A stretch of 64,000 bases of DNA, from positions 1 to 64,000 of the IMG/VR virus record IMGVR_UViG_3300036832_001138; one strand, 5' to 3'. Positions 2,814 through 56,868 of the stretch are shown in pieces (positions within the stretch are counted from its first letter, which is position 1; every line of letters begins with the position of its first letter). Both the position numbers and the translations under genes were made by a program. The DNA is from a virus. Below the pieces are notes generated by a model. The model worked only from the letters and a program-made list of their open reading frames with translations. It searched no databases and had not been told where the DNA came from.

Positions 2814-2819
2814 GGAGAT

Positions 2820-2914
2820 GCGCCCGGCAGTCACCGTTTGGAGTTCACATCATTCCTGGCCGGGCGCGGCGGTCGCACGAACGCGATGGAGTTCAGAAGA
2901 ATAATGGCGACCGC
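2820..2914 (-). ncRNA. Orphan TIGR-like mini-array (2 guide units)
   Basis: gcgcccgg-ca-gtcaccgtt-tggagttca-catcattcc-tgg-ccgggcgc-g-gcggtcg-ca-cgaacgcga-tggagttca-gaagaataa-tgg-cgaccgc; same architecture as the 53.7-56.1 kb arrays. Confidence 0.9.
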
Positions 2915-2942: not shown

Positions 2943-4103
2943 ATGGCGAGAACACCCACACGAGTACCCGCATTTCCGACAACGCCGCCGGGCGCGGGCG
3001 TGCCGACGCGCGTACCGGGGCCGTCGCTTCCTCCCGTGGGTACGCGCTCGCCCACGCGCGTGCCCGCTGCGCCGCAGACCGCGCCGGGCAACGGCTTTCC
3101 CAATGCGGTGCGTATTCCGCAAACGTCGCCGGTCGGCCCGACCTACCCGGTGCACAGCCCGCCCGCGCCTACCGTCGGCTCGCGCTTCCCGGCGAATTCT
3201 CCGCCTCTGCCCATCGTGCCCGCGCGCTATCCCAACAGCGCGCGGCTGACGGCGGAGGCGGTGATCAGGGGGGCGAGCTTTCCCAATCGAAGCAGTCCGG
3301 GCATGGCGTTGCCGACGCCAACCGGGCAATTCCCCGATCACCCGACGGCGCAACTCCCGGCCCCGCCCGCGCAATTCCCCGACCGATTCGATCCGGGTAT
3401 GACGCTGCCGACGCCAGTCTCGCACTTCCGTCACTACAACAAGCCGGGTGAGCCGGGCTCGGGCGGGTTTGATCCCGCACCTGCGCCAAATCGGCGCTTC
3501 CCGACGCGGCATATCGATCCGCTCACGCGCATCCCGCGGTGGCGGCAACGGCTGCGTATCGCCTCATTCAAGGGGATTGAATTCTACGTCGAGCAACAAG
3601 GGCGCACGTCCGGCACGCGTACCGTCTTGCATCAATATCCGAAGCGCTCTGTGCCCTATGCCGAATCCATGGGACGCGAGGCGTTGCACTACGCGGTCAC
3701 CGGCTATCTGATCCAATCGCCGAACTGGCCGACGGGCGCGTCGTATTACGAGATGCTCTCGGATTATTCCGATCAGCGCGACAGCCTCGAAGCGGCGTTG
3801 ATGGACCCGGTGCCGGGCGAATTGCGTGATCCGCACACGCCGTATCTCGGCGTTGGTTACGCGCCGCTTCTGTTCATGTGTGAGAAGTACACGATCGTCG
3901 AGCAACGCGAGAAGGGCGGTTTTTGCTCGATCGAAATGAGCTTCGTCGAGGCTGGCGTCGCTGGCATGTCGATCCAAATGCAAGACACCGCTGGCGTCGT
4001 CGCCAACGCCGCGAACAACGCGAGCACTGCCGTAGCCGCGCAGGCTAATGCGCAACTCGGTGCCGTCAATCAACCCGGCGCTGCGCTCGCGTTTGAAGAA
4101 TAG
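2943..4103 (+). CDS. DNA circulation protein (Mu gpN-like) N-terminal domain with a Pro-rich extension
   Basis: 'WRQRLRIASFKGIEFYVEQQGRTSGTRTVLHQYPKRSVPYAESMGR' resembles DNA_circ_N; 'CSIEMSFVEAG' follows. Confidence 0.8.
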   Translation: MARTPTRVPAFPTTPPGAGVPTRVPGPSLPPVGTRSPTRVPAAPQTAPGNGFPNAVRIPQTSPVGPTYPVHSPPAPTVGSRFPANSPPLPIVPARYPNSARLTAEAVIRGASFPNRSSPGMALPTPTGQFPDHPTAQLPAPPAQFPDRFDPGMTLPTPVSHFRHYNKPGEPGSGGFDPAPAPNRRFPTRHIDPLTRIPRWRQRLRIASFKGIEFYVEQQGRTSGTRTVLHQYPKRSVPYAESMGREALHYAVTGYLIQSPNWPTGASYYEMLSDYSDQRDSLEAALMDPVPGELRDPHTPYLGVGYAPLLFMCEKYTIVEQREKGGFCSIEMSFVEAGVAGMSIQMQDTAGVVANAANNASTAVAAQANAQLGAVNQPGAALAFEE

Positions 4104-9205: not shown

Positions 9206-10309
9206 ATGCCGTGGGTCACGCCAACGTTGCAGCAATGCCGCGAGATCGTGCGCGACGATATCACCGCGTCTTTGCAGGGCGCGGCCGTGGTCGGCAACAC
9301 GGTGCTGCGCGTTATGTCCGATGCGATGGCGGGGATCGGCGCGCTCGTGCTGCGATACGAGGATTGGCAGGCGCGGCAATTGATGGTCGACCAAGCCGAG
9401 AAGGAATGGCTCGATCGGCACGGGAACATATGGCTCGTGAACGCCGACGGCACGACCGGCCGCAAGGGCGCGACCACGGCATCCGGTACGGTAACCTTCA
9501 CGGGCGTTGCAGGCGTGACCGTTGCCGCGGGCACCGAGCTTGTGTCACCTGACGGGCAGGCGTTTTACGATACGCTGGAATTCATCACGCTCGGCACGGC
9601 ACCGGTCGAGGTTGCCGTTCGCGCGACGACCGCCGGGGCGGCGGGCAACATACCCGCGGGCACCGCGCTGGCGCTGACCGTTCCGGAATCCGGCGTCGAT
9701 AGTGCGGTCATCGTCGTCGATCTGCGCGGCGGTGAGGAAGTCGAGAGCGATGACGAACTCCGCGCGCGCGTGCTCGCGCGTATCCGCCAGCCACCGATGG
9801 GCGGCTGCGCTTACGATTACGAGCATTGGGCGATGAGCATTCCGAGCGTGACGCGTGCATGGTGCGCGCCGCGCGAGATGGGAATGGGCACCGTGACGGT
9901 GCGATTCATGTGCGACGCGTTGCGGCCGGAAACCAGCGGCATCCCGACGCAAGACGATATCAATATCGTGCGCAACTATCTCGACACGGTGCGCCCGGTC
10001 GCGGTGCGAGATTTCTTCGTTGAAGCGCCCGTGCCCGAGCCGATCAATTTCAATCTCGCGCTCAAACAGGATTCTCTCGCGCTGCGCGGGCAAGTGCAAG
10101 CGTCAGTCGCGGCGATGATCAGCGAGAAGGCCGCGCCCGCGCACCAAGTCGACGGCGAGCTTGTGGCGGGCACGACGATTCTCGCATCGTGGGTTGCGGA
10201 GGCGATCAACCGCTGCACGAATGATTTCACGCTCGATATGCAAGATCATCCCATGCCGCACAACGGGGCAATCGGGGTACTCGGTGCGATCAGCTATCCG
10301 ATTCCGTAG
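9206..10309 (+). CDS. Baseplate J / Mu gp47-like protein
   Basis: 'WLDRHG...RKGATTASG', 'GGEEVESDDELRARVLARIRQPPMGGCAYDYEHWA', 'GMGTVTV'. Confidence 0.9.
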   Translation: MPWVTPTLQQCREIVRDDITASLQGAAVVGNTVLRVMSDAMAGIGALVLRYEDWQARQLMVDQAEKEWLDRHGNIWLVNADGTTGRKGATTASGTVTFTGVAGVTVAAGTELVSPDGQAFYDTLEFITLGTAPVEVAVRATTAGAAGNIPAGTALALTVPESGVDSAVIVVDLRGGEEVESDDELRARVLARIRQPPMGGCAYDYEHWAMSIPSVTRAWCAPREMGMGTVTVRFMCDALRPETSGIPTQDDINIVRNYLDTVRPVAVRDFFVEAPVPEPINFNLALKQDSLALRGQVQASVAAMISEKAAPAHQVDGELVAGTTILASWVAEAINRCTNDFTLDMQDHPMPHNGAIGVLGAISYPIP

Positions 10310-10319
10310 AGAGAAGGGC

Positions 10320-10369
10320 GAGCCCCGGCAGTCACGCTCTGGAGTTCATGAATTCGATGGCCGGGGCTC
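10320..10369 (-). ncRNA. Orphan TIGR-like guide unit
   Basis: gagccccgg-ca-gtcacgctc-tggagttca-tgaattcga-tgg-ccggggctc, intergenic between baseplate J and the gp48-like gene. Confidence 0.88.
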
Positions 10370-14863: not shown

Positions 14864-14915
14864 GTGATCCGGGCATCAGGTTATTGGAGTTCATAGGTCG
14901 CGTGGCCGGGATCAC
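14864..14915 (-). ncRNA. Orphan TIGR-like guide unit
   Basis: gtgatccggg-ca-tcaggttat-tggagttca-taggtcgcg-tgg-ccgggatcac; new stem sequence but the same boxes and 9-nt spacers. Confidence 0.85.
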
Positions 14916-50703: not shown

Positions 50704-52848
50704 GTGATGCTGGAGATCGAGCCCATAGCTCGCGCATTGCTCGGCGAGCCCAACGCGAAGCTATCTTCGCAATTCGAATGGCGATATGGCAACCGCGGCT
50801 CGCTTTCAATCGATCTGCGCAAGAATGTTTGGCACGACCACGAAACCGACGAGAGCGGCGGATGCCTCGATCTGATCACTCACAAGACCGGACTCGACGG
50901 CCCGGAGCGTGCGCAATGGATGCACGATCGCGGCATCGGCAATGGATACGATCAAACGACCAAGCGCCCGGAGATCGTGGCGACGTTTCCCTATAATGAC
51001 GAATACGGCAAGGAGCTTTTTCAGGTTGTCAAATTCGAGCCGAAGGATTTCCGCCAGCGGCGGCAAGACAAGACCGCGCCCGGCGGCTATCGCTGGTCGG
51101 TCAAGGGCGTGCGGCGAATTCCCTATCGCCTCGACGATTTGTCAGAAAAAATCGAAGGGCGCATTTTCATCGCCGAAGGCGAAAAAGACGTTGATACGCT
51201 TTGGCGGCACAACATTCCAGCGACGTGCAATGCCGGGGGCGCAGGCAAGTGGCATCCCGAACTCACCGAATTTTTCCGCAACAAGACCGACAACGTAGTT
51301 GTACTGCCCGATCGTGATCCGCCGAAGAAAGACCCAAAGACCGGCGCGGAAATGAAGCACGAGGATGGGCGGTTCATTCGGCCGGGGCAAGACCACGCAC
51401 AAGAGATCGCGGCAGAGATGCATCGCATTGGCGTACCCGTGCGCGTGGTCGAGCTTTGGCGCGATTGGCCGGAGATGCCCGAGAAGGGTGACGTAACCGA
51501 TTGGTTCGATCATGGCGGCACGGCCGACCGGCTACAGAAAATTGTTCAAGACGCCCCATTTTGGAAACCGGGCGATCAAGCTGACGACGGCGCGCTGCTC
51601 AAGCTCCAATCCGTGTTTCCGATCAACGAGCGCGCACTCCCAACGCGCAATTGGATCATGCCAGGACTTTTAATGCGGCGTCAGGTAACCGTGTTGGTAG
51701 CACCAAGTGGTGTGGGCAAAAGTTTGCTCACGCTGCAATTAGGTATCGCCTGTGCACAAGGCCGAAAATGGAGCGGTTGGACTCCGCGCCGTACATTCAA
51801 CGTGCTGTTTATCAACTCGGAAGATGACTATTTCGAAATCTGCCGCAGGCTCGCCGCGGCCACGCAAAGGATGCGACTCGGCGCACATAACGAATTCGAA
51901 ATTGATCAGCTAGGAATCGCCGATCGCTTCCATATCGCCGATGCCGAGCAGAGCGGTACTGTTGTTGCCAAGTTTGACGCACGAACCAAAACGCTCGTGA
52001 GCACACCGTTGCACGATCAACTGATCGAAACAATAAAAGCCAACCAAATCGATGTGGTCTTCGTCGATCCGTTTGCCGAGACTTTCGAGGGCGACGAAAA
52101 TTCCAATAGCGAATTGAAGTGGGCGGGCGCGTTATGGCGCAAGGTTGCGCGGCAAACCGATGCTGCGGTTTGTCTCGTGCATCATACAAAAAAATATGCA
52201 AGCGGGCTGCAAGGTGACGTTGATGCGGCGCGCGGTGCTGGTGCGCTGATCGGAATCGCGCGCATTGTCTCGACGCTATTTCCGATGACGCCGAAGGAAG
52301 CGGAAGCGATGGGCGTCAAGCTCGGAGATAGGTCGCTCTATTTGCGATACGATGATGCGAAAGCAAATCTGAATTTGGTTTCTCCGTTTGCGCGCTGGTT
52401 TCAAAAGACCACGATCACGCTCGACAATGCATGCGGCGATCCTAACAGCGACGACTTTGTGCCCGGCGACGAAGTGGGCGTGCTCAATCCATGGAAGCCT
52501 GAAACGAAAGACGTGCACGAAGCTCAGATCATCGGATTTTTCAAGGCGATCGATCGCGGCATGGTCGACGATGCTGATCAACCGACCGGCGAATTCTGGA
52601 CCTTCAAAAAGGGCAAGAGCGGCGCGAGATACGTCGGCTACCTCGCGCAAAGCTTTTTCAAATGCGATGCGCTCTCGCAAGCCGAAGCGCTGATCCGCAA
52701 GTGGGAAGGCACAAGATTGAAAACGATTCAATTCAAGGCGCGGAACGGTCACCTTCGTGATCGCGTCGTGAGCGAGCTTTCCCCCGACTTCCCGCGCCCC
52801 GAGGCCGCGCCGATCGAGCCGATGGCACAGCTTTTTCCTGCCGAATAG
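50704..52848 (+). CDS. Primase-helicase (TOPRIM + AAA_25/RepA-like helicase)
   Basis: TOPRIM 'IFIAEGEKD...LPDRD', 'KGDVTDW'; Walker A APSGVGKS; 'VFVDP', 'LVHHTKK', 'ARGAGAL'. Confidence 0.9.
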   Translation: MMLEIEPIARALLGEPNAKLSSQFEWRYGNRGSLSIDLRKNVWHDHETDESGGCLDLITHKTGLDGPERAQWMHDRGIGNGYDQTTKRPEIVATFPYNDEYGKELFQVVKFEPKDFRQRRQDKTAPGGYRWSVKGVRRIPYRLDDLSEKIEGRIFIAEGEKDVDTLWRHNIPATCNAGGAGKWHPELTEFFRNKTDNVVVLPDRDPPKKDPKTGAEMKHEDGRFIRPGQDHAQEIAAEMHRIGVPVRVVELWRDWPEMPEKGDVTDWFDHGGTADRLQKIVQDAPFWKPGDQADDGALLKLQSVFPINERALPTRNWIMPGLLMRRQVTVLVAPSGVGKSLLTLQLGIACAQGRKWSGWTPRRTFNVLFINSEDDYFEICRRLAAATQRMRLGAHNEFEIDQLGIADRFHIADAEQSGTVVAKFDARTKTLVSTPLHDQLIETIKANQIDVVFVDPFAETFEGDENSNSELKWAGALWRKVARQTDAAVCLVHHTKKYASGLQGDVDAARGAGALIGIARIVSTLFPMTPKEAEAMGVKLGDRSLYLRYDDAKANLNLVSPFARWFQKTTITLDNACGDPNSDDFVPGDEVGVLNPWKPETKDVHEAQIIGFFKAIDRGMVDDADQPTGEFWTFKKGKSGARYVGYLAQSFFKCDALSQAEALIRKWEGTRLKTIQFKARNGHLRDRVVSELSPDFPRPEAAPIEPMAQLFPAE

Positions 52849-53647
52849 GTTCGTCAACGGCGACGCGACGCCATTCGCTCAGCAAATCTTTGAGAAATTG
52901 TTTCATCGTGATGCGCAGCGCATCTTTGCGCCGATGGCCGTCGGTCCAATCCGGGTGCGCTTTCTTGGTGTAGGCGCGGCGCTTAGCATAGATTTCGCCA
53001 TAGTGGCCCTTTGGCTTGCCTTCGCCGCCGGTTTTCTTTGCGCCAATCCACTGCGCGTTCACGAGCCACGTCGCGATCTGTGCCATCAGCGCATAGCGCT
53101 CCCCGGAAAAAGGATTTTCGATCCATTCGTCGGCGCTCAGCGCGCGCGGTCGCCACGTCGTGCGTTTCCACGTTGATCCGGCGTGGCCGTCGTATGGTGC
53201 GAAGCCGAGCCGCTTCCATAACTTGCTCGGCTTGGAATAATTCGAGAGATCGCCAGCTTCGGCGACGATGGTCGCGAGCCCGAGCGCGCCTGCGCCGTGA
53301 ATCTTTTCGATCCATGGATAAACCGGTAGCTCGCACGCGGCAGCCTCCATTCGCTTTTCCGTGGCAGCACGCCGTTCATCAGCGGGCGCACGCGCAGGAT
53401 CGCATACCTGCAACACTTCTTCCGCCAGCGGATGCGCTTCGCCCTCGCGAATGCGCTTGATAATTTCGCGCACCTCGCGGTTCGATTTCTCGCGCTCGGC
53501 ATCGCTGGCGTTAGGATTCCATTTGGTGCCATTGATACGAATGAAGCTTTCGAGCGAGCGGTCAAGTTTCTGTTGCACTTTCATTGCGAACCGTCGCTTT
53601 CGATGCAGGCCGCGGATCAATTCGATGGTTTCGGATTGTTGGGTCAT
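52733..53647 (-). CDS. TIGR-associated Nop-domain protein without a nuclease domain (TasA-like)
   Basis: 'IHGAGALGLATIVAEAGDLSNYSKPSKLWKRLGFAP' and 'GHYGEIY..RR...HRRKDALRITMKQFLKDL' resemble the IS110/Nop RNA-binding region; starts at the coiled coil with no DEDD-RuvC or HNH; directly downstream of the array. Confidence 0.8.
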   Translation of the reverse strand: MTQQSETIELIRGLHRKRRFAMKVQQKLDRSLESFIRINGTKWNPNASDAEREKSNREVREIIKRIREGEAHPLAEEVLQVCDPARAPADERRAATEKRMEAAACELPVYPWIEKIHGAGALGLATIVAEAGDLSNYSKPSKLWKRLGFAPYDGHAGSTWKRTTWRPRALSADEWIENPFSGERYALMAQIATWLVNAQWIGAKKTGGEGKPKGHYGEIYAKRRAYTKKAHPDWTDGHRRKDALRITMKQFLKDLLSEWRRVAVDEPIRQEKAVPSARSARPRGAGSRGKARSRRDHEGDRSAP

Positions 53648-53676
53648 TTGTTGTGGTTCCTATTTGTGAGTTAGGT

Positions 53677-54214
53677 GCGAGCCCGGCAACCGGTCAATGG
53701 AGTTCACGATCGCCTTGGCCGGGCTCGCGGCGGTCGCAAGCGGCGTGTGGAGTTCACAGACGTGATGGCGACCGCATTGGTGGATTAGGGTGCGAGCCCG
53801 GCACTCGCGATATGGAGTTCAAGTGCTGGTAGGCCGGGCTCGCGGCGGTCGCAACGCAACGTTGGAGTTCACATGATCTTTGGCGACCGCATTCGAGAAT
53901 AGAGCGCCCGGCATGCCGTTTGTGGAGTTCAATCACGTGCTGGCCGGGCGCGGCGGTCGCACGGAGGCGCTGGAGTTCACGATCTACATGGCGACCGCAT
54001 CGGTGGATTGGGTGCGAGCCCGGCATTGGCCGACAGGAGTTCAACCCTTTCCTGGCCGGGCTCGCTACGGTCGCATTGCGCGCGTGGAGTTCACTCAGAT
54101 CGTGGCGACCGCAAAAGGTGCGCCCGGCAGCGTTGTCATGGAGCACACAAGTGTTTTGGCCGGGCGCGGCGGTCGCAACCGCTCCGTGGAGTTCACTACT
54201 GTTTTGGCGACCGC
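53677..54214 (-). ncRNA. TIGR-like stem-loop guide array, proximal (10 units)
   Basis: Minus strand unit: stem-CCA-N9-TGAACTCCA-N9-TG-stem'; stems alternate between GCGGTCG and GCG(A)GCCCGG; all spacer pairs differ. Confidence 0.9.
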
Positions 54215-54226
54215 ATTTCGTGAATA

Positions 54227-54898
54227 TCATGACCGTGCATCGCCCTCGATTTCTGACGGCTTGCGCGCGGCGGCGATCAGATCGCTTGCGACCTTCGCCG
54301 AGCCGTCGCGGATCACTTCGACGGCTTTGATCCTAGCGTCGTTATAGTATTGCACGGCAATCTTGAGCGGTATCACCTTCTCGACTTCGCCGTGCGGATC
54401 GGCGGCGACGCAATAGTCATTCAACCGCCGGATTGCGATCGCGTCGACTGCATCATCATAACCGCGCTGTAGGAAATCTCCGGCCGTGTTTGCCAGATTT
54501 TCCGCGATGGCGCGCAATTCGTGTACGCGCAGCTTCCCAAGCGGACCATAACCACGGATTTTGCGGTTGAATATCTCGGCGGCGACGGCTTGCCCGGCGG
54601 CGATCGCTCCCGCCTTTTGCGCGTCGGTGGGTGTGCGGAGCAGACTGCTCCGGCGATGCTTGCCCTCGCGGCGGCGCGCGGCGGGCTTCGGGTGCGCGAT
54701 CCGCGGTAGCTTCGTTTCGCTCGACGGCGACGACAAGCGCGACAGGTAATCAGCAACGAGCGCGATAAGCAGCGGCCGCTTCGCATTGTCCATCAACGCG
54801 CGTGCCAGCGTCGGTGCGGCTTTGTTCACACTATTGTTGCTGGCGCGCAGCGCTTCGATCGCGGCGTCGCGGAGCTTATCGAGATCAGAGGCGGCCAT
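54227..54898 (-). CDS. Hypothetical helical protein embedded between the two arrays
   Basis: 223-aa ORF with SD gaagga; it fills the gap between the arrays exactly. Confidence 0.7.
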   Translation of the reverse strand: MAASDLDKLRDAAIEALRASNNSVNKAAPTLARALMDNAKRPLLIALVADYLSRLSSPSSETKLPRIAHPKPAARRREGKHRRSSLLRTPTDAQKAGAIAAGQAVAAEIFNRKIRGYGPLGKLRVHELRAIAENLANTAGDFLQRGYDDAVDAIAIRRLNDYCVAADPHGEVEKVIPLKIAVQYYNDARIKAVEVIRDGSAKVASDLIAAARKPSEIEGDARS

Positions 54899-54929
54899 GT
54901 GTTTGGTGTCCTTCTCGTTTGAAAAAAGT

Positions 54930-56121
54930 GCGAGCCCGGCAAGTGGTGACTGGAGTCCACGTCGGATCAGGCCGGGCTCGCGGCGGTCGCAGAATTGTTT
55001 TGGAGTTCACCAAGGCACTGGCGACCGCATTCGAGATAAGAGCGCCCGGCAGGCTACATTTGGAGTTCATAGGGCCAATGGCCGGGCGCGGCGGTCGCAG
55101 CGCAAGATTGGAGTTCACGTGATCTTTGGCGACCGCATTCGAGGGAAAGAGTGCGCCCGGCAGAGCTTCACAGGAGTTCACGCCGAATTTGGCCGGGCGC
55201 GGCGGTCGCATCTCGTCGTTGGAGTTCAATCGTGTGCTGGCGACCGCATTTCGAATAGGTGCGCCCGGCAGAAGCCGGTTGGAGTTCAGGCCAGCATTGG
55301 CCGGGCGCGGCGGTCGCACGACACCAATGGAGTGCAAGGGAGAACAGGCGACCGCATTCGAGATGGGTGCGCCCGGCAGGTCATCGTTGGAGTTCACGTG
55401 CTTGATGGCCGGGCGCGGCGGTCGCAATCTCTGGATGGAGTTCATACAAATGCTGGCGACCGCATTCGGGTGAAAGAGAGCGCCCGGCATTTCCATTTTG
55501 GAGTTCAACTGATCGCTGGCCGGGCGCGGCGGTCGCATTCCAAACCTGGAGTTCATCAGCTTACTGGCGACCGCAGTCGGTTTGATAGGTGCGCCCGGCA
55601 AGGCGATGTTGGAGTTCATATTGCCGGTGGCCGGGCGCGGCGGTCGCAGATAGGTGCAGGAGTTCACACCCGAATTGGCGACCGCGTTGGTGATAGGTGC
55701 GCCCGGCAATGATTGCTTGGAGTTCATCATGAAGGTGGCCGGGCGCGGCGGTCGCAGCGTGGCGTTGGAGTTCACGGGATCAGTGGCGACCGCGTTCGTT
55801 GTGATAGGTGCGCCCGGCAGACAGCGATCGGAGTGCACGTTCACCAGGGCCGGGCGCGGCGGTCGCAGTGGCAGTATGGAGTTCATTCGGCACCTGGCGA
55901 CCGCATTCGAGAATAGAGCGCCCGGCACGCCTCCCTTGGAGATCAATGCCGAAATGGCCGGGCGCGGCGGTCGCATCCTCGATCTGGAGTGCATCAGTGG
56001 CATGGCGACCGCGTTCGTGAAAAGGTGCGCCCGGCAGACGAGTTCTGGAGTTCACGACTACGATGGCCGGGCGCGGCGGTCGCACCTTGAACTTGGAGTT
56101 CAACCACGTCGTGGCGACCGC
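54930..56121 (-). ncRNA. TIGR-like stem-loop guide array, distal (22 units)
   Basis: Eleven two-hairpin modules (~105-115 bp period); same CCA/TG boxes, 9-nt spacers and 9-nt loop repeat. Confidence 0.92.
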
Positions 56122-56129
56122 ATGCCAAA

Positions 56130-56159
56130 CATATACGGGCCATCGGCCTAACGTGTCAA
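56130..56159 (-). promoter_or_regulatory. Sigma70 promoter driving the array-tas operon, with operator variant
   Basis: TTGACA-N18-TATATG; the predicted start site falls at the first stem; the spacer holds AGGCCGATGGCCC. Confidence 0.8.
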
Positions 56160-56174
56160 TGTGACGAAAATCAC

Positions 56175-56201
56175 AAAAAAAGAGCCGCCCCGAAGGGCGG
56201 C
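56175..56201 (-). terminator. Intrinsic terminator insulating the TIGR promoter
   Basis: gccgccc-ttcg-gggcggc-tcttttttt on the - strand. Confidence 0.8.
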
Positions 56202-56208
56202 CCGAGCT

Positions 56209-56868
56209 TTAGCTTAGATCGAGCGTGCGGCCTGCGATCGTGGGGGCCGCGAGTTGTTTCGCTTCGCCGAGATCGAGCCGTCGCTTCGCCATTCGCGAGG
56301 CTTTGATCGCGTCGCGCTGGCGTAGCGATTTCTCGTAATACTTCTTTCGTAACTTGAGCTTGCGCAGTTTCGTCTTAGCGAGCTTTTCCTTTCGCTCCCA
56401 CGCGGCGATCAACTCAACCGTGCGCGCGTAGCGTGCTTGTTGCCGGTCCGTCGGCGGCTTCGCCTTCGCGCGGGCGAGCTTTCCGTCGAGCCATCCCGAC
56501 TTGACCACGTACTCCGCGAGCCTGCGCTCGATATACGCATGTTGCGGAGCGTGCGGCCCGAGCCGATTGCGGTCATAAAGGCGATTGAATGCCCAATGAC
56601 TTATATCGTGCACGATCCCTTTCCATCCGCTGAAACTCGGATGGCGATAGGCCGGGTTGACGTAGAACACGCCGCCACGAGTCCAAGTGCGCCGGTTGCC
56701 CGACGTTGGTTTGAACTTTCCGCGGAACTTGCGTTTCGGCGAGTTCGCCGGACCGAGCGAGAGGGCGAGTCTGACGAGCTTGCGCGCGCCAGCGATCGCC
56801 TCCTGCGGTGTGGGGGCCCGCGCATCCGCGGGCCATGCGGCATTGACGTTTTGATAGTTCGTTGGCAT
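56209..56868 (-). CDS. Hypothetical protein with a zincin-like HDxxH...H motif
   Basis: 'IVHDISHW...GPHAPQH'; basic coiled-coil C-terminus. Confidence 0.6.
   Translation of the reverse strand: MPTNYQNVNAAWPADARAPTPQEAIAGARKLVRLALSLGPANSPKRKFRGKFKPTSGNRRTWTRGGVFYVNPAYRHPSFSGWKGIVHDISHWAFNRLYDRNRLGPHAPQHAYIERRLAEYVVKSGWLDGKLARAKAKPPTDRQQARYARTVELIAAWERKEKLAKTKLRKLKLRKKYYEKSLRQRDAIKASRMAKRRLDLGEAKQLAAPTIAGRTLDLS

What the first reader, a model, noticed from the sequence alone, without database searches (positions are those of the whole stretch)
53677..56121. The two spacers appear to read a 17-bp target with a 1-bp overlap
Seen (hand count over all 36 units): the 3'-terminal bases of spacer A and spacer B are Watson-Crick complementary in 18 units and G.U-compatible in 9 more. 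At uniform base composition about 9 WC and about 13-14 WC+GU would be expected. All of the best in-window matches also need target = spacer A + revcomp(spacer B) sharing one base pair. Inference: both spacers read the same central bp from opposite strands. Alternatively, these two bases pair within the RNA. Either way it is a testable targeting rule and a clue to how spacers are acquired.
Basis: partly seen in the sequence, partly recalled or inferred. Interest (0 to 1): 0.82.

Follow-up and report, generated by a model that had tools for sequence, protein, structure and literature searches.

The report
Phage TIGR guide halves overlap one base
A soil phage carries an array of two-part guide RNAs (a TIGR-Tas system) whose two halves read opposite DNA strands and appear to share the middle base pair, giving a 17-bp target, and related phages aim such guides at each other's genes.

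Summary
The window has 36 hairpin units, and the 3'-terminal bases of the two 9-nt spacers are Watson-Crick in 18 and G.U in 9 (permutation p=0.005 and 1e-5).

The region is a stem-loop TIGR array read on the minus strand: stem-CCA-N9-UG-AACU-CCA-N9-UG-stem. It lies upstream of a nuclease-less Tas protein (52733-53647) in a 73-kb tailed phage.

In 475 non-redundant units from 99 related loci, the same position pair is Watson-Crick in 50.1% (z=12.8). The other 80 position pairs stay within |z|<3.

I searched related phage DNA using only the outer 8 nt of each spacer. Only a 1-bp gap between them, meaning spacer A + revcomp(spacer B) sharing one base pair (17 bp), exceeds shuffled spacer pairs: 47 hits vs 17.1±3.9, and 60 vs 31.9±5.5 in a larger set. 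Other gaps, the opposite geometry and unrelated DNA are flat.

Many protospacers lie in other phages' tas genes.

Caveats:
- Complementarity is only partial.
- The excess rests on roughly ten guides.
- One guide fits 18 bp.
- The window's own guides have no perfect target.
- Nothing has been tested at the bench.

I found no printed mention of this overlap. Published structures describe 18-bp targets.

The parts
52733..53647 (-). tasA: 304-aa Tas protein (coiled coil plus Nop-type RNA-binding domain, no nuclease domain)
   Evidence: The only PDB sequence hit is 9MTY_A, TIGR-TasR (E 0.015). The AlphaFold2 model has pLDDT 82.8. The top 7 Foldseek hits are all TIGR-Tas chains (9MTY, 9W03, 9W04, 9W02, 9VZX; E 7e-5 to 8e-4), followed by IS621/ISCro4 bridge recombinases. 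Pfam gives only a sub-threshold Transposase_20 hit.
53676..54214 (-). TIGR sub-array 1: 10 stem-loop units between the conserved 223-aa ORF and tasA
   Evidence: Unit table. On the minus strand each unit reads stem-CCA-N9-TG-N4-CCA-N9-TG-stem.
54227..54898 (-). 223-aa ORF of unknown function between the two sub-arrays
   Evidence: No Pfam or PHROG family. tblastn finds it in 20 related loci; in those I compared with the tas coordinates it lies just upstream of tas on the same strand (e.g. L120 9080-9757, tas from 10001).
54929..56121 (-). TIGR sub-array 2: 22 stem-loop units, alternating GCGCCCGG-type and GCGGTCG-type stems (period about 108 nt)
   Evidence: A pair of units folds as two hairpins (z=-3.4).
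56130..56159 (-). Possible sigma-70-type promoter for the array operon: TTGACA (56159-56154), 18 nt, TATATG (56135-56130)
   Evidence: Read from the sequence. The consensus scan did not list it because the second hexamer lacks T at position 6. Inference only.
56182..56203 (-). Intrinsic-terminator-like hairpin ending the upstream gene 56209-56868, just before the array
   Evidence: 9 pairs, 8 of them G-C, followed by a T run.
2819..2914 (-). Pair of outlying units between tail/baseplate genes
   Evidence: Same orientation as the main array although the flanking genes are on the + strand.
10320..10369 (-). Solo outlying unit between two baseplate wedge genes
14872..14907 (-). Solo outlying unit with a mismatched stem, upstream of the endolysin gene
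53045..53061 (+). Site inside this phage's own tasA (codons for NAQW) that matches 16 of 17 positions of a guide carried by related locus L145

Best explanation
The region is a stem-loop TIGR array of a 73-kb tailed soil phage. It is probably co-transcribed on the minus strand with a conserved 223-aa ORF and a nuclease-less Tas protein (TasA).

Each hairpin unit gives one tigRNA: stem, box C (CCA), 9-nt spacer A, box D' (UG), 4-nt loop, box C' (CCA), 9-nt spacer B, box D (UG), stem.

As in published TIGR systems, spacer A pairs with one DNA strand and spacer B with the other, and their 3' ends meet in the middle of the target. In this TasA clade the two footprints overlap by one base pair. The last base of spacer A pairs with the bottom-strand base of the central pair. 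The last base of spacer B pairs with its top-strand partner. The target is therefore 17 bp (8+1+8), not 18.

Because both terminal bases answer to the same DNA base pair, they covary. RNA-type G.U combinations are tolerated.

The guides are aimed at conserved genes of related phages, including their tas genes. With no nuclease, the likely effect is RNA-guided binding and repression of rival phages.

Shown here: the array anatomy, the strand, the covariation and the 17-bp register of natural matches. Inferred: pairing of both terminal bases in the bound complex, repression, and operon transcription.
For: Family.
- Tas fold.
- The units fit the published stem-loop detection rule: box C CCA, box D TG, 14-nt intervals (Xu 2026 methods passage).

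Strand.
- 730 of 737 units in 99 related loci lie on the tas strand.
- Under a strand-symmetric criterion, stems carry G.U far more often than A.C on that strand: 89 vs 41, p=3e-5.

Covariation.
- Window: 18 WC + 9 GU of 36.
- Related loci: 50.1% WC of 475 units, z=12.8, and only at this position pair.
- All four WC combinations are about 2x expectation, U-G 1.44x, G-U 1.15x, pyrimidine-pyrimidine 0.29x.
- It is present in each loop sub-clade.

Register, tested with 16 nt only (outer 8 nt of each spacer).
- A 1-bp gap gives 47 hits at >=15/16, against 17.1±3.9 for shuffled pairs (max 29 in 40 shuffles). Gaps 0 and 2-7 give 8-20 hits and sit at the null.
- In a larger set with 10 whole phage records: 60 vs 31.9±5.5 (max 47 in 30 shuffles).
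- Guides with at least 2 site variants: 8 vs a null mean of 2.05 (max 6 in 40).
- The opposite geometry (5' ends at the centre) is flat.
- 1.04 Mb of unrelated viral DNA shows no gap-1 peak: counts are 8-27, with 27 at both gap 1 and gap 6.

Central base.
- It equals spacer A's last base in 23 of 31 hits of guides whose terminal bases agree.
- At guide level this is 10 of 18 guides (p=0.005).

Best matches.
- Two perfect 17/17 matches, in the tas genes of L157 and L146.
- One 16/16 match whose central base agrees with spacer A only.

Targets.
- 84 of 88 hits are non-self.
- 38 of 88 lie in tas.
Against: - Complementarity is only 50% WC (70% with G.U), so the shared pair is not obligatory.
- By distinct guides the excess is modest: 39 vs 29.3±4.3, with a null maximum of 40. 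It rests on roughly ten guides.
- Most of those guides aim at tas, which is over-represented in my target set: about 100 copies, 8% of the bases.
- One guide (L147) fits an 18-bp contiguous site in tas. Guides with non-pairing terminal bases show about equal small counts at gaps 1 and 2 (13 each).
- One 16/16 hit has a central mismatch to both spacers.
- None of the window's own 38 guides has a perfect target in anything I hold.
- Solved Tas complexes (TaTasR, CsTasR, PlTasA) are described with 9+9 bp, and 18 bp is stated for TaTasR and CsTasR.
- There are no expression, binding or structural data for this clade.
Confidence: 0.8

Rival explanations
1. The two terminal bases pair with each other inside the tigRNA (a structural pair in the free RNP). 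The target's central base pair is not read: the effector reads 8+8 with a 1-bp unread gap.
For: G.U combinations are tolerated and pyrimidine-pyrimidine combinations are strongly avoided, as for an RNA pair. TaTasR tolerates 1-2 bp gaps between half-sites (Faure 2025 passage). SpTasH heteroduplexes are 8 bp (Guan 2026 passage).
Against: In natural matches the central base agrees with spacer A's last base in 23 of 31 hits of guides whose terminal bases agree, so the position carries target information. Wobble tolerance is equally expected for RNA:DNA pairing. A pair between these two positions is not nested next to any helix of the hairpin (sequence). The two readings are not mutually exclusive.
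Confidence: 0.08
2. The covariation is a footprint of how units are made: both spacers are copied from one 17-bp duplex, 9 nt from the 5' end of each strand. The effector itself does not need either terminal base.
For: Same data as the main reading. The partial, transition-rich decay of complementarity (WC 50%, GU 20%, AC 7%, other 22%) looks like drift from an initially perfect pair. Terminal positions are often weakly read in guide systems (general knowledge, not tested here).
Against: G.U (96) outnumbers A.C (35), against 74 and 43 expected. That points to selection at the RNA level rather than neutral decay. No adaptation machinery is known (Faure 2025 and Xu 2026 discussions).
Confidence: 0.07
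3. The register is flexible: some guides use a 17-bp overlapped target and others an 18-bp contiguous one. The 50% complementarity reflects that mixture.
For: The L147 guide matches tas sites as 18 bp contiguous, with both middle bases agreeing. Guides with non-pairing terminal bases have 13 hits at gap 1 and 13 at gap 2, against 4-10 at other gaps. WC 50% equals about one third forced plus chance.
Against: Overall, gap 2 shows no excess over shuffles: 20 vs 15.3±4.3 and 31 vs 29.9±5.5. Guides with non-complementary terminal bases also have convincing gap-1 matches, e.g. 16/16 in three tas genes.
Confidence: 0.04
4. The pattern is chance or an artefact of hand counting or of how units were picked.
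For: Within the window alone, one other position pair also reaches 18 of 36. The in-window target matches are near chance.
Against: z=12.8 in 475 independent units at exactly one of 81 position pairs. The detection rule does not look at these positions. The shuffled-pair and unrelated-DNA controls are flat.
Confidence: 0.01

Closest known systems
Stem-loop TIGR-TasA systems (PlTasA from a Peromyscus leucopus gut contig; MbTasA, BlTasA) described by Faure et al. 2025, Xu et al. 2026 and Guan et al. 2026
   Same: A nuclease-less Tas with coiled coil and Nop domain. [quoted passage not shown] Sub-arrays split by genes, plus outlying units. Phage-borne. Each spacer reads a different DNA strand with the 3' ends at the centre. 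The published function is RNA-guided binding and repression.
   Different: PlTasA and CsTasR complexes are described with 9 bp per heteroduplex, and an 18-bp target is stated for CsTasR. Here natural matches and covariation indicate 17 bp with a shared central pair. Natural targets were reported as undetermined. Here several lie in rival phages' tas genes.
Dual-repeat TIGR-TasR/TasH (TaTasR, PDB 9MTY; SpTasH, 9W03/9W04)
   Same: Same protein fold and the same tandem-spacer logic.
   Different: These have fixed 36-nt tigRNAs with edge and loop repeats, not hairpins, and nuclease domains. Faure 2025 states that spacers A and B show no obvious covariation and are unlikely to overlap, and that 1-2 bp gaps are tolerated. 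SpTasH heteroduplexes are 8 bp.
IS110/IS621 bridge RNA target-binding loop
   Same: A related protein fold is the next-best structural match. Two guide segments in one internal loop read opposite strands on either side of a central core (Hiraizumi 2024 passages).
   Different: It is a recombinase with RuvC and Tnp domains and a fixed CT core dinucleotide, with one RNA per element and no arrays. I did not establish whether both bridge-RNA guides pair with the same core base pair.
Archaeal/eukaryotic box C/D guide RNAs with Nop5/Nop56/58
   Same: Two guides each followed by a box D-type motif, bound by a Nop-domain protein dimer on a coiled coil (Faure 2025 discussion; weak fold hits 3NVK and Prp31).
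   Different: They guide RNA methylation, use K-turns with L7Ae and fibrillarin, and the two guides read separate RNA targets.

Membership tests
TIGR-Tas (stem-loop type) | A Tas protein with coiled-coil and Nop-type RNA-binding domain encoded beside the array | tested here: met
   52733-53647 (-). PDB sequence hit 9MTY_A. Top 7 Foldseek hits are TasR/TasH chains. The gene starts 29 nt from the array.
TIGR-Tas (stem-loop type) | [quoted passage not shown] | tested here: met
   All 36 window units read CCA-like/N9/NG twice with a 4-nt loop and 6-11 bp stems on the minus strand; one solo unit has a mismatched stem.
TIGR-Tas (stem-loop type) | Units co-oriented with tas and repeated in arrays | tested here: met
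   36 of 36 in the window; 730 of 737 in 99 related loci.
TIGR-Tas (stem-loop type) | Array transcribed and processed into single-hairpin tigRNAs bound by Tas | not testable with these tools
   No RNA run is listed for this DNA. Indirect support only: G.U over A.C in stems on the tas strand, and CUU within 8 nt 3' of the stem in 7 of 36 units on the minus strand against 0 on the plus strand.
TIGR-Tas (stem-loop type) | Spacer A and spacer B pair with opposite strands of one DNA site, 3' ends at the centre | tested here: met
   Natural matches fit A + revcomp(B) and not the reverse geometry.
TIGR-Tas (as solved so far) | Contiguous 18-bp target (9+9) without overlap | tested here: not met
   The excess of natural matches is only at a 1-bp gap between the 8-nt blocks, i.e. 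17 bp. This is a difference in register, not grounds to exclude it from the family.
TasA subtype | No HNH or RuvC nuclease domain | tested here: met
   304 aa. Residues 1-104 are modelled as long helices. No nuclease family in Pfam. The alignment to TasR covers only its non-nuclease part (residues 161-221 of 9MTY_A).
IS110 bridge recombinase | DEDD RuvC-like domain plus Tnp domain with a catalytic serine; element ends with a core dinucleotide | tested here: not met
   Only a sub-threshold Transposase_20 hit (20.8 bits vs cutoff 21.3). No DEDD domain hit. IS621 ranks below all Tas chains (E 0.06).

The most novel reading that the evidence does not exclude
The shared central base pair is the birth mark of TIGR spacer acquisition. 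A new hairpin unit is made from one 17-bp duplex of a rival phage by copying 9 nt from the 5' end of each strand, so the middle base pair is written into both spacers.

The arrays of these soil phages would then form a network of mutual RNA-guided repression aimed at each other's conserved genes, above all the rivals' own tas genes ('anti-TIGR' guides). Carriers escape through synonymous differences at the same codons.
Probability: 0.3. Interest if true: 0.88.

Novelty: new variant of a known kind. Interest (0 to 1): 0.78.

Why it matters
TIGR-Tas is a recently described family of RNA-guided DNA binders that needs no PAM and is being developed for editing and gene control.

Two open questions are stated in the papers I read: what the spacers naturally target, and how spacer pairs are acquired.

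This array and its relatives bear on both.
- They give a concrete, testable targeting rule that differs from the published 18-bp rule: a 17-bp target with a central base pair read from both strands, and wobble tolerated there.
- They give the first natural protospacers I could find for a stem-loop TasA clade. These lie in conserved genes of rival phages, including tas itself. That fits the proposed role in competition between mobile elements.

For anyone designing guides for TasA proteins of this clade, a one-base error in register would matter.

Tried and rejected
- Plus-strand reading. On the + strand the complementary pair is the 5'-terminal one, and the 3'-terminal pair is at chance: 8 of 36.
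- Loose IMG/VR scan. A 14-base unit pattern gave 119 loci, almost all single chance matches; the only multi-match locus (L079) is a collagen-like repeat. I dropped it and replaced it with Tas-anchored loci. Those 119 loci later served as the unrelated-DNA control.
- In-window and in-genome targets. No perfect match. The 1-bp-overlap geometry gives 3 matches at >=16/18, and each other setting gives 0-2. This is too weak to carry the claim.
- 5'-ends-at-centre geometry, and gaps 0 and 2-7. No excess.
- Whole-score test with both 9-mers. It double-counts the shared base, so I replaced it with the 16-nt gap test.
- Solo guide 10341. I checked whether its hits in L137-type phages fall in a homologue of the adjacent baseplate gene. 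They do not.
- A broader unit grammar (spacers 8-10 nt, variant boxes) mostly re-parsed the same units.
- RNA evidence. No RNA holder is listed for this DNA.
- Other stem-loop TIGR clades were not tested, because I had no way to fetch them. Supplementary files of the TIGR papers were closed; they may hold spacer-covariation or target analyses that I could not see.

'Not in print' rests on these searches:
- (search listings).
- Passages found in Faure 2025.
- Results and Discussion sections, plus passages, of Xu 2026.
- Passages of Guan 2026.
- A term search of PMC13421893 that found nothing.
Full report
**What is there**

The window is the first 64,000 bases of a 73,077-bp virus record. The record is 59% G+C and carries baseplate, tail-fibre, endolysin, RecT/RecE, primase-helicase and DNA methylase genes, so it is a tailed phage.

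Between 53676 and 56121 lie 32 hairpin units in two sub-arrays, 53676-54214 and 54929-56121. A 223-aa ORF (54227-54898) separates them. Four more units stand alone or as a pair at 2819-2914, 10320-10369 and 14872-14907. Two further units lie in the genome beyond the window.

On the + strand a unit reads stem-CA-N9-TGGAGTTCA-N9-TGG-stem. On the minus strand it reads stem-CCA-N9-TG-AACT-CCA-N9-TG-stem.

**What family it belongs to**

The ORF that starts 29 nt from the array (52733-53647, minus strand, 304 aa) has one sequence hit in the PDB: chain A of 9MTY, the TIGR-TasR complex (E 0.015). Its AlphaFold2 model has mean pLDDT 82.8. Its seven best Foldseek matches are TasR and TasH chains, followed by IS621-type bridge recombinases.

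It has no nuclease domain, so it is a TasA.

[quoted passage not shown] 2026).

**Which strand is read**

- In 99 related loci found through the Tas protein, 730 of 737 units lie on the tas strand.
- With a strand-symmetric criterion for picking units, non-Watson-Crick stem positions are G.U 89 times and A.C 41 times on the tas strand (p=3e-5).
- On the minus strand, a terminator-like hairpin ends the upstream gene, and a TTGACA-18-TATATG motif precedes the first hairpin. The motif is read from the sequence and the scan did not list it.

So the array is read on the minus strand.

**The observation**

Permuting the partners gives means of 10.7 and 15.8, p=0.0054 and p=1e-5.

In the window alone, one other of the 81 position pairs also reaches 18 of 36. 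The window by itself is therefore suggestive only.

**Replication in related arrays**

From the related loci I took 730 units. These reduced to 490 distinct spacer pairs, then to 476 after removing pairs within 4 differences of each other. One of those was dropped for being within 4 differences of a window guide, leaving 475.

- The terminal pair is Watson-Crick in 50.1% (z=12.8).
- The other 80 pairs lie between 21% and 31% with |z|<=2.8.
- All four Watson-Crick combinations are about twice expectation.
- U-G is 1.44x, G-U 1.15x, A-C and C-A 0.75-0.85x, purine-purine 0.54x and pyrimidine-pyrimidine 0.29x.
- The signal is present in each loop sub-clade: 38-71% against about 25% expected.

The preference for G.U over A.C on the tas strand again fits an RNA-level constraint on that strand.

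**The register of natural targets**

To avoid circularity I searched with only the outer 8 nt of each spacer (16 nt in all). I let the gap between spacer A(1-8) and revcomp(spacer B(1-8)) vary from 0 to 7, with array units masked.

First set: 0.92 Mb of related loci plus the phage genome, 513 guides.
- Hits at >=15/16 number 16, 47, 20, 17, 14, 8, 13 and 15 for gaps 0 to 7.
- Forty shuffles of the A-B pairing give 17.1±3.9 at gap 1 (max 29), and similar values elsewhere.

Second set: whole records of ten related phages replace their ±10-kb excerpts, 1.16 Mb, 550 guides.
- Gap 1 gives 60 hits against 31.9±5.5 (max 47 in 30 shuffles).
- Other gaps give 20-31 hits.

By distinct guides the excess is smaller: 39 against 29.3±4.3, with a null maximum of 40. 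Guides with two or more site variants number 8 against a null mean of 2.05 (max 6).

The opposite geometry is flat. So is 1.04 Mb of unrelated viral DNA: counts are 8-27, with 27 at both gap 1 and gap 6.

**Is the central pair read?**

In gap-1 hits of guides whose two terminal bases agree, the target's central base equals spacer A's last base in 23 of 31 hits. At guide level this is 10 of 18 guides (p=0.005). Roughly half of these hits are expected background.

In hits of guides whose terminal bases disagree, the central base equals spacer A's base 9 times, the complement of spacer B's base 10 times, and neither 6 times, out of 25.

Two guides have perfect 17/17 matches:
- the L175 guide against the tas of L157;
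- the L120/G001 guide against the tas of L146.

A third guide (L123/G006) has 16/16 with the central base agreeing with spacer A only, in three tas genes. A fourth 16/16 hit mismatches both terminal bases at the centre.

**What is targeted**

Of 88 hits (overlapping records not merged), 84 are in loci other than the carrier's. Thirty-eight lie in tas, which makes up 8% of the searched bases. Tas is also the one gene present in every locus, so this does not show that tas is the preferred target.

Three arrays aim at the same codons (VNAQWIG) in three registers. The carrier L175's own tas differs from its guide's site at 3 of 17 positions.

This phage's own tas (53045-53061) is a 16/17 match to a guide carried by L145.

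The window's own 38 guides have no perfect target in anything I hold, and only five sites at >=15/17 in their own genome.

**Mechanism and rivals**

The best reading is that both 3'-terminal spacer bases address the two bases of one central DNA pair. The unwound target is then 17 bp, and wobble is tolerated at that position.

Three alternatives cannot be fully separated here, and I give them small shares.
- A purely intramolecular RNA pair is disfavoured, because the central base carries target information.
- A pure acquisition footprint with no reading would predict neutral decay, with A.C about as common as G.U. That is not seen: 96 G.U and 35 A.C, against 74 and 43 expected.
- A mixed 17/18-bp register has limited support: one guide that fits 18 bp, and equal small counts at gaps 1 and 2 for non-pairing guides.

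**Against what is known**

- Faure et al. 2025 (passages) state that spacers A and B of dual-repeat arrays show no obvious covariation and are unlikely to overlap. They describe an unwound 18-bp target and tolerance of 1-2 bp gaps.
- Xu et al. 2026 (Results and Discussion read) report 18 bp for CsTasR. They say that natural targets and spacer acquisition remain unknown.
- Guan et al. 2026 (passages) report 9 bp per heteroduplex for PlTasA and 8 for SpTasH.

None of the passages or searches mentions an overlap or a 17-bp target.

I therefore rate this a new variant of a known kind. The claim is bioinformatic, and I give it about 0.8 confidence.

Noticed in passing
window 54227-54898 (-): A 223-aa ORF with no Pfam or PHROG family sits between the two sub-arrays. 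tblastn finds it in 20 related loci; in those I compared with the tas coordinates it lies just upstream of tas on the same strand. It may be an accessory gene of this TasA clade.
   Followed up: partly
window 2819-2914, 10320-10369, 14872-14907: Outlying units lie between + strand tail, baseplate and lysis genes yet keep the minus-strand orientation of the main array, so they are antisense to their neighbours. Units 2888 and 10341 have their only near-cognate 17-bp sites in the adjacent genes (4087-4103, 15/17; 9576-9592, 16/17). This is a post-hoc observation and its significance was not tested.
   Followed up: partly
window 53045-53061: This phage's own tasA carries a 16/17 match to a guide of a related array (L145), at the codons for the invariant NAQW motif.
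   Followed up: yes
L175, L145, L147 guides; tas sites in about 30 loci: Three different arrays aim at the same conserved tas codons (VNAQWIG) in three registers, which argues against any fixed flanking motif. The carrier L175's own site differs at 3 of 17 positions, all within the same codons.
   Followed up: partly
L165:505, L172:223: A guide carried by these loci has a 1-mismatch site in its own locus directly after a TTGACA hexamer, about 1 kb upstream of tas. This could be a self-regulatory site at a promoter.
   Followed up: no
genome (outside window) 67401-67500: Two further units of the same kind, both with Watson-Crick terminal bases, lie between small minus-strand ORFs.
   Followed up: partly
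window 56130-56203 (-): A terminator-like hairpin (56203-56182) ends the upstream gene. A TTGACA-18-TATATG motif (56159-56130) sits immediately before the first hairpin, suggesting that array, ORF, array and tasA form one transcript.
   Followed up: no
window 53676-56121: Units alternate between two stem types (GCGCCCGG-like and GCGGTCG). The second hairpin abuts the first without a linker, and a 12-16-nt linker follows each pair. CUU occurs within 8 nt 3' of the stem in 7 of 36 units on the minus strand and in none on the plus strand.
   Followed up: partly
L141 (MAG labelled Xanthobacteraceae): The only hit in the species-representative genome collection is a 4.7-kb contig of a Xanthobacteraceae MAG with 17 units. 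This is a weak hint at the host group of this phage clade.
   Followed up: no
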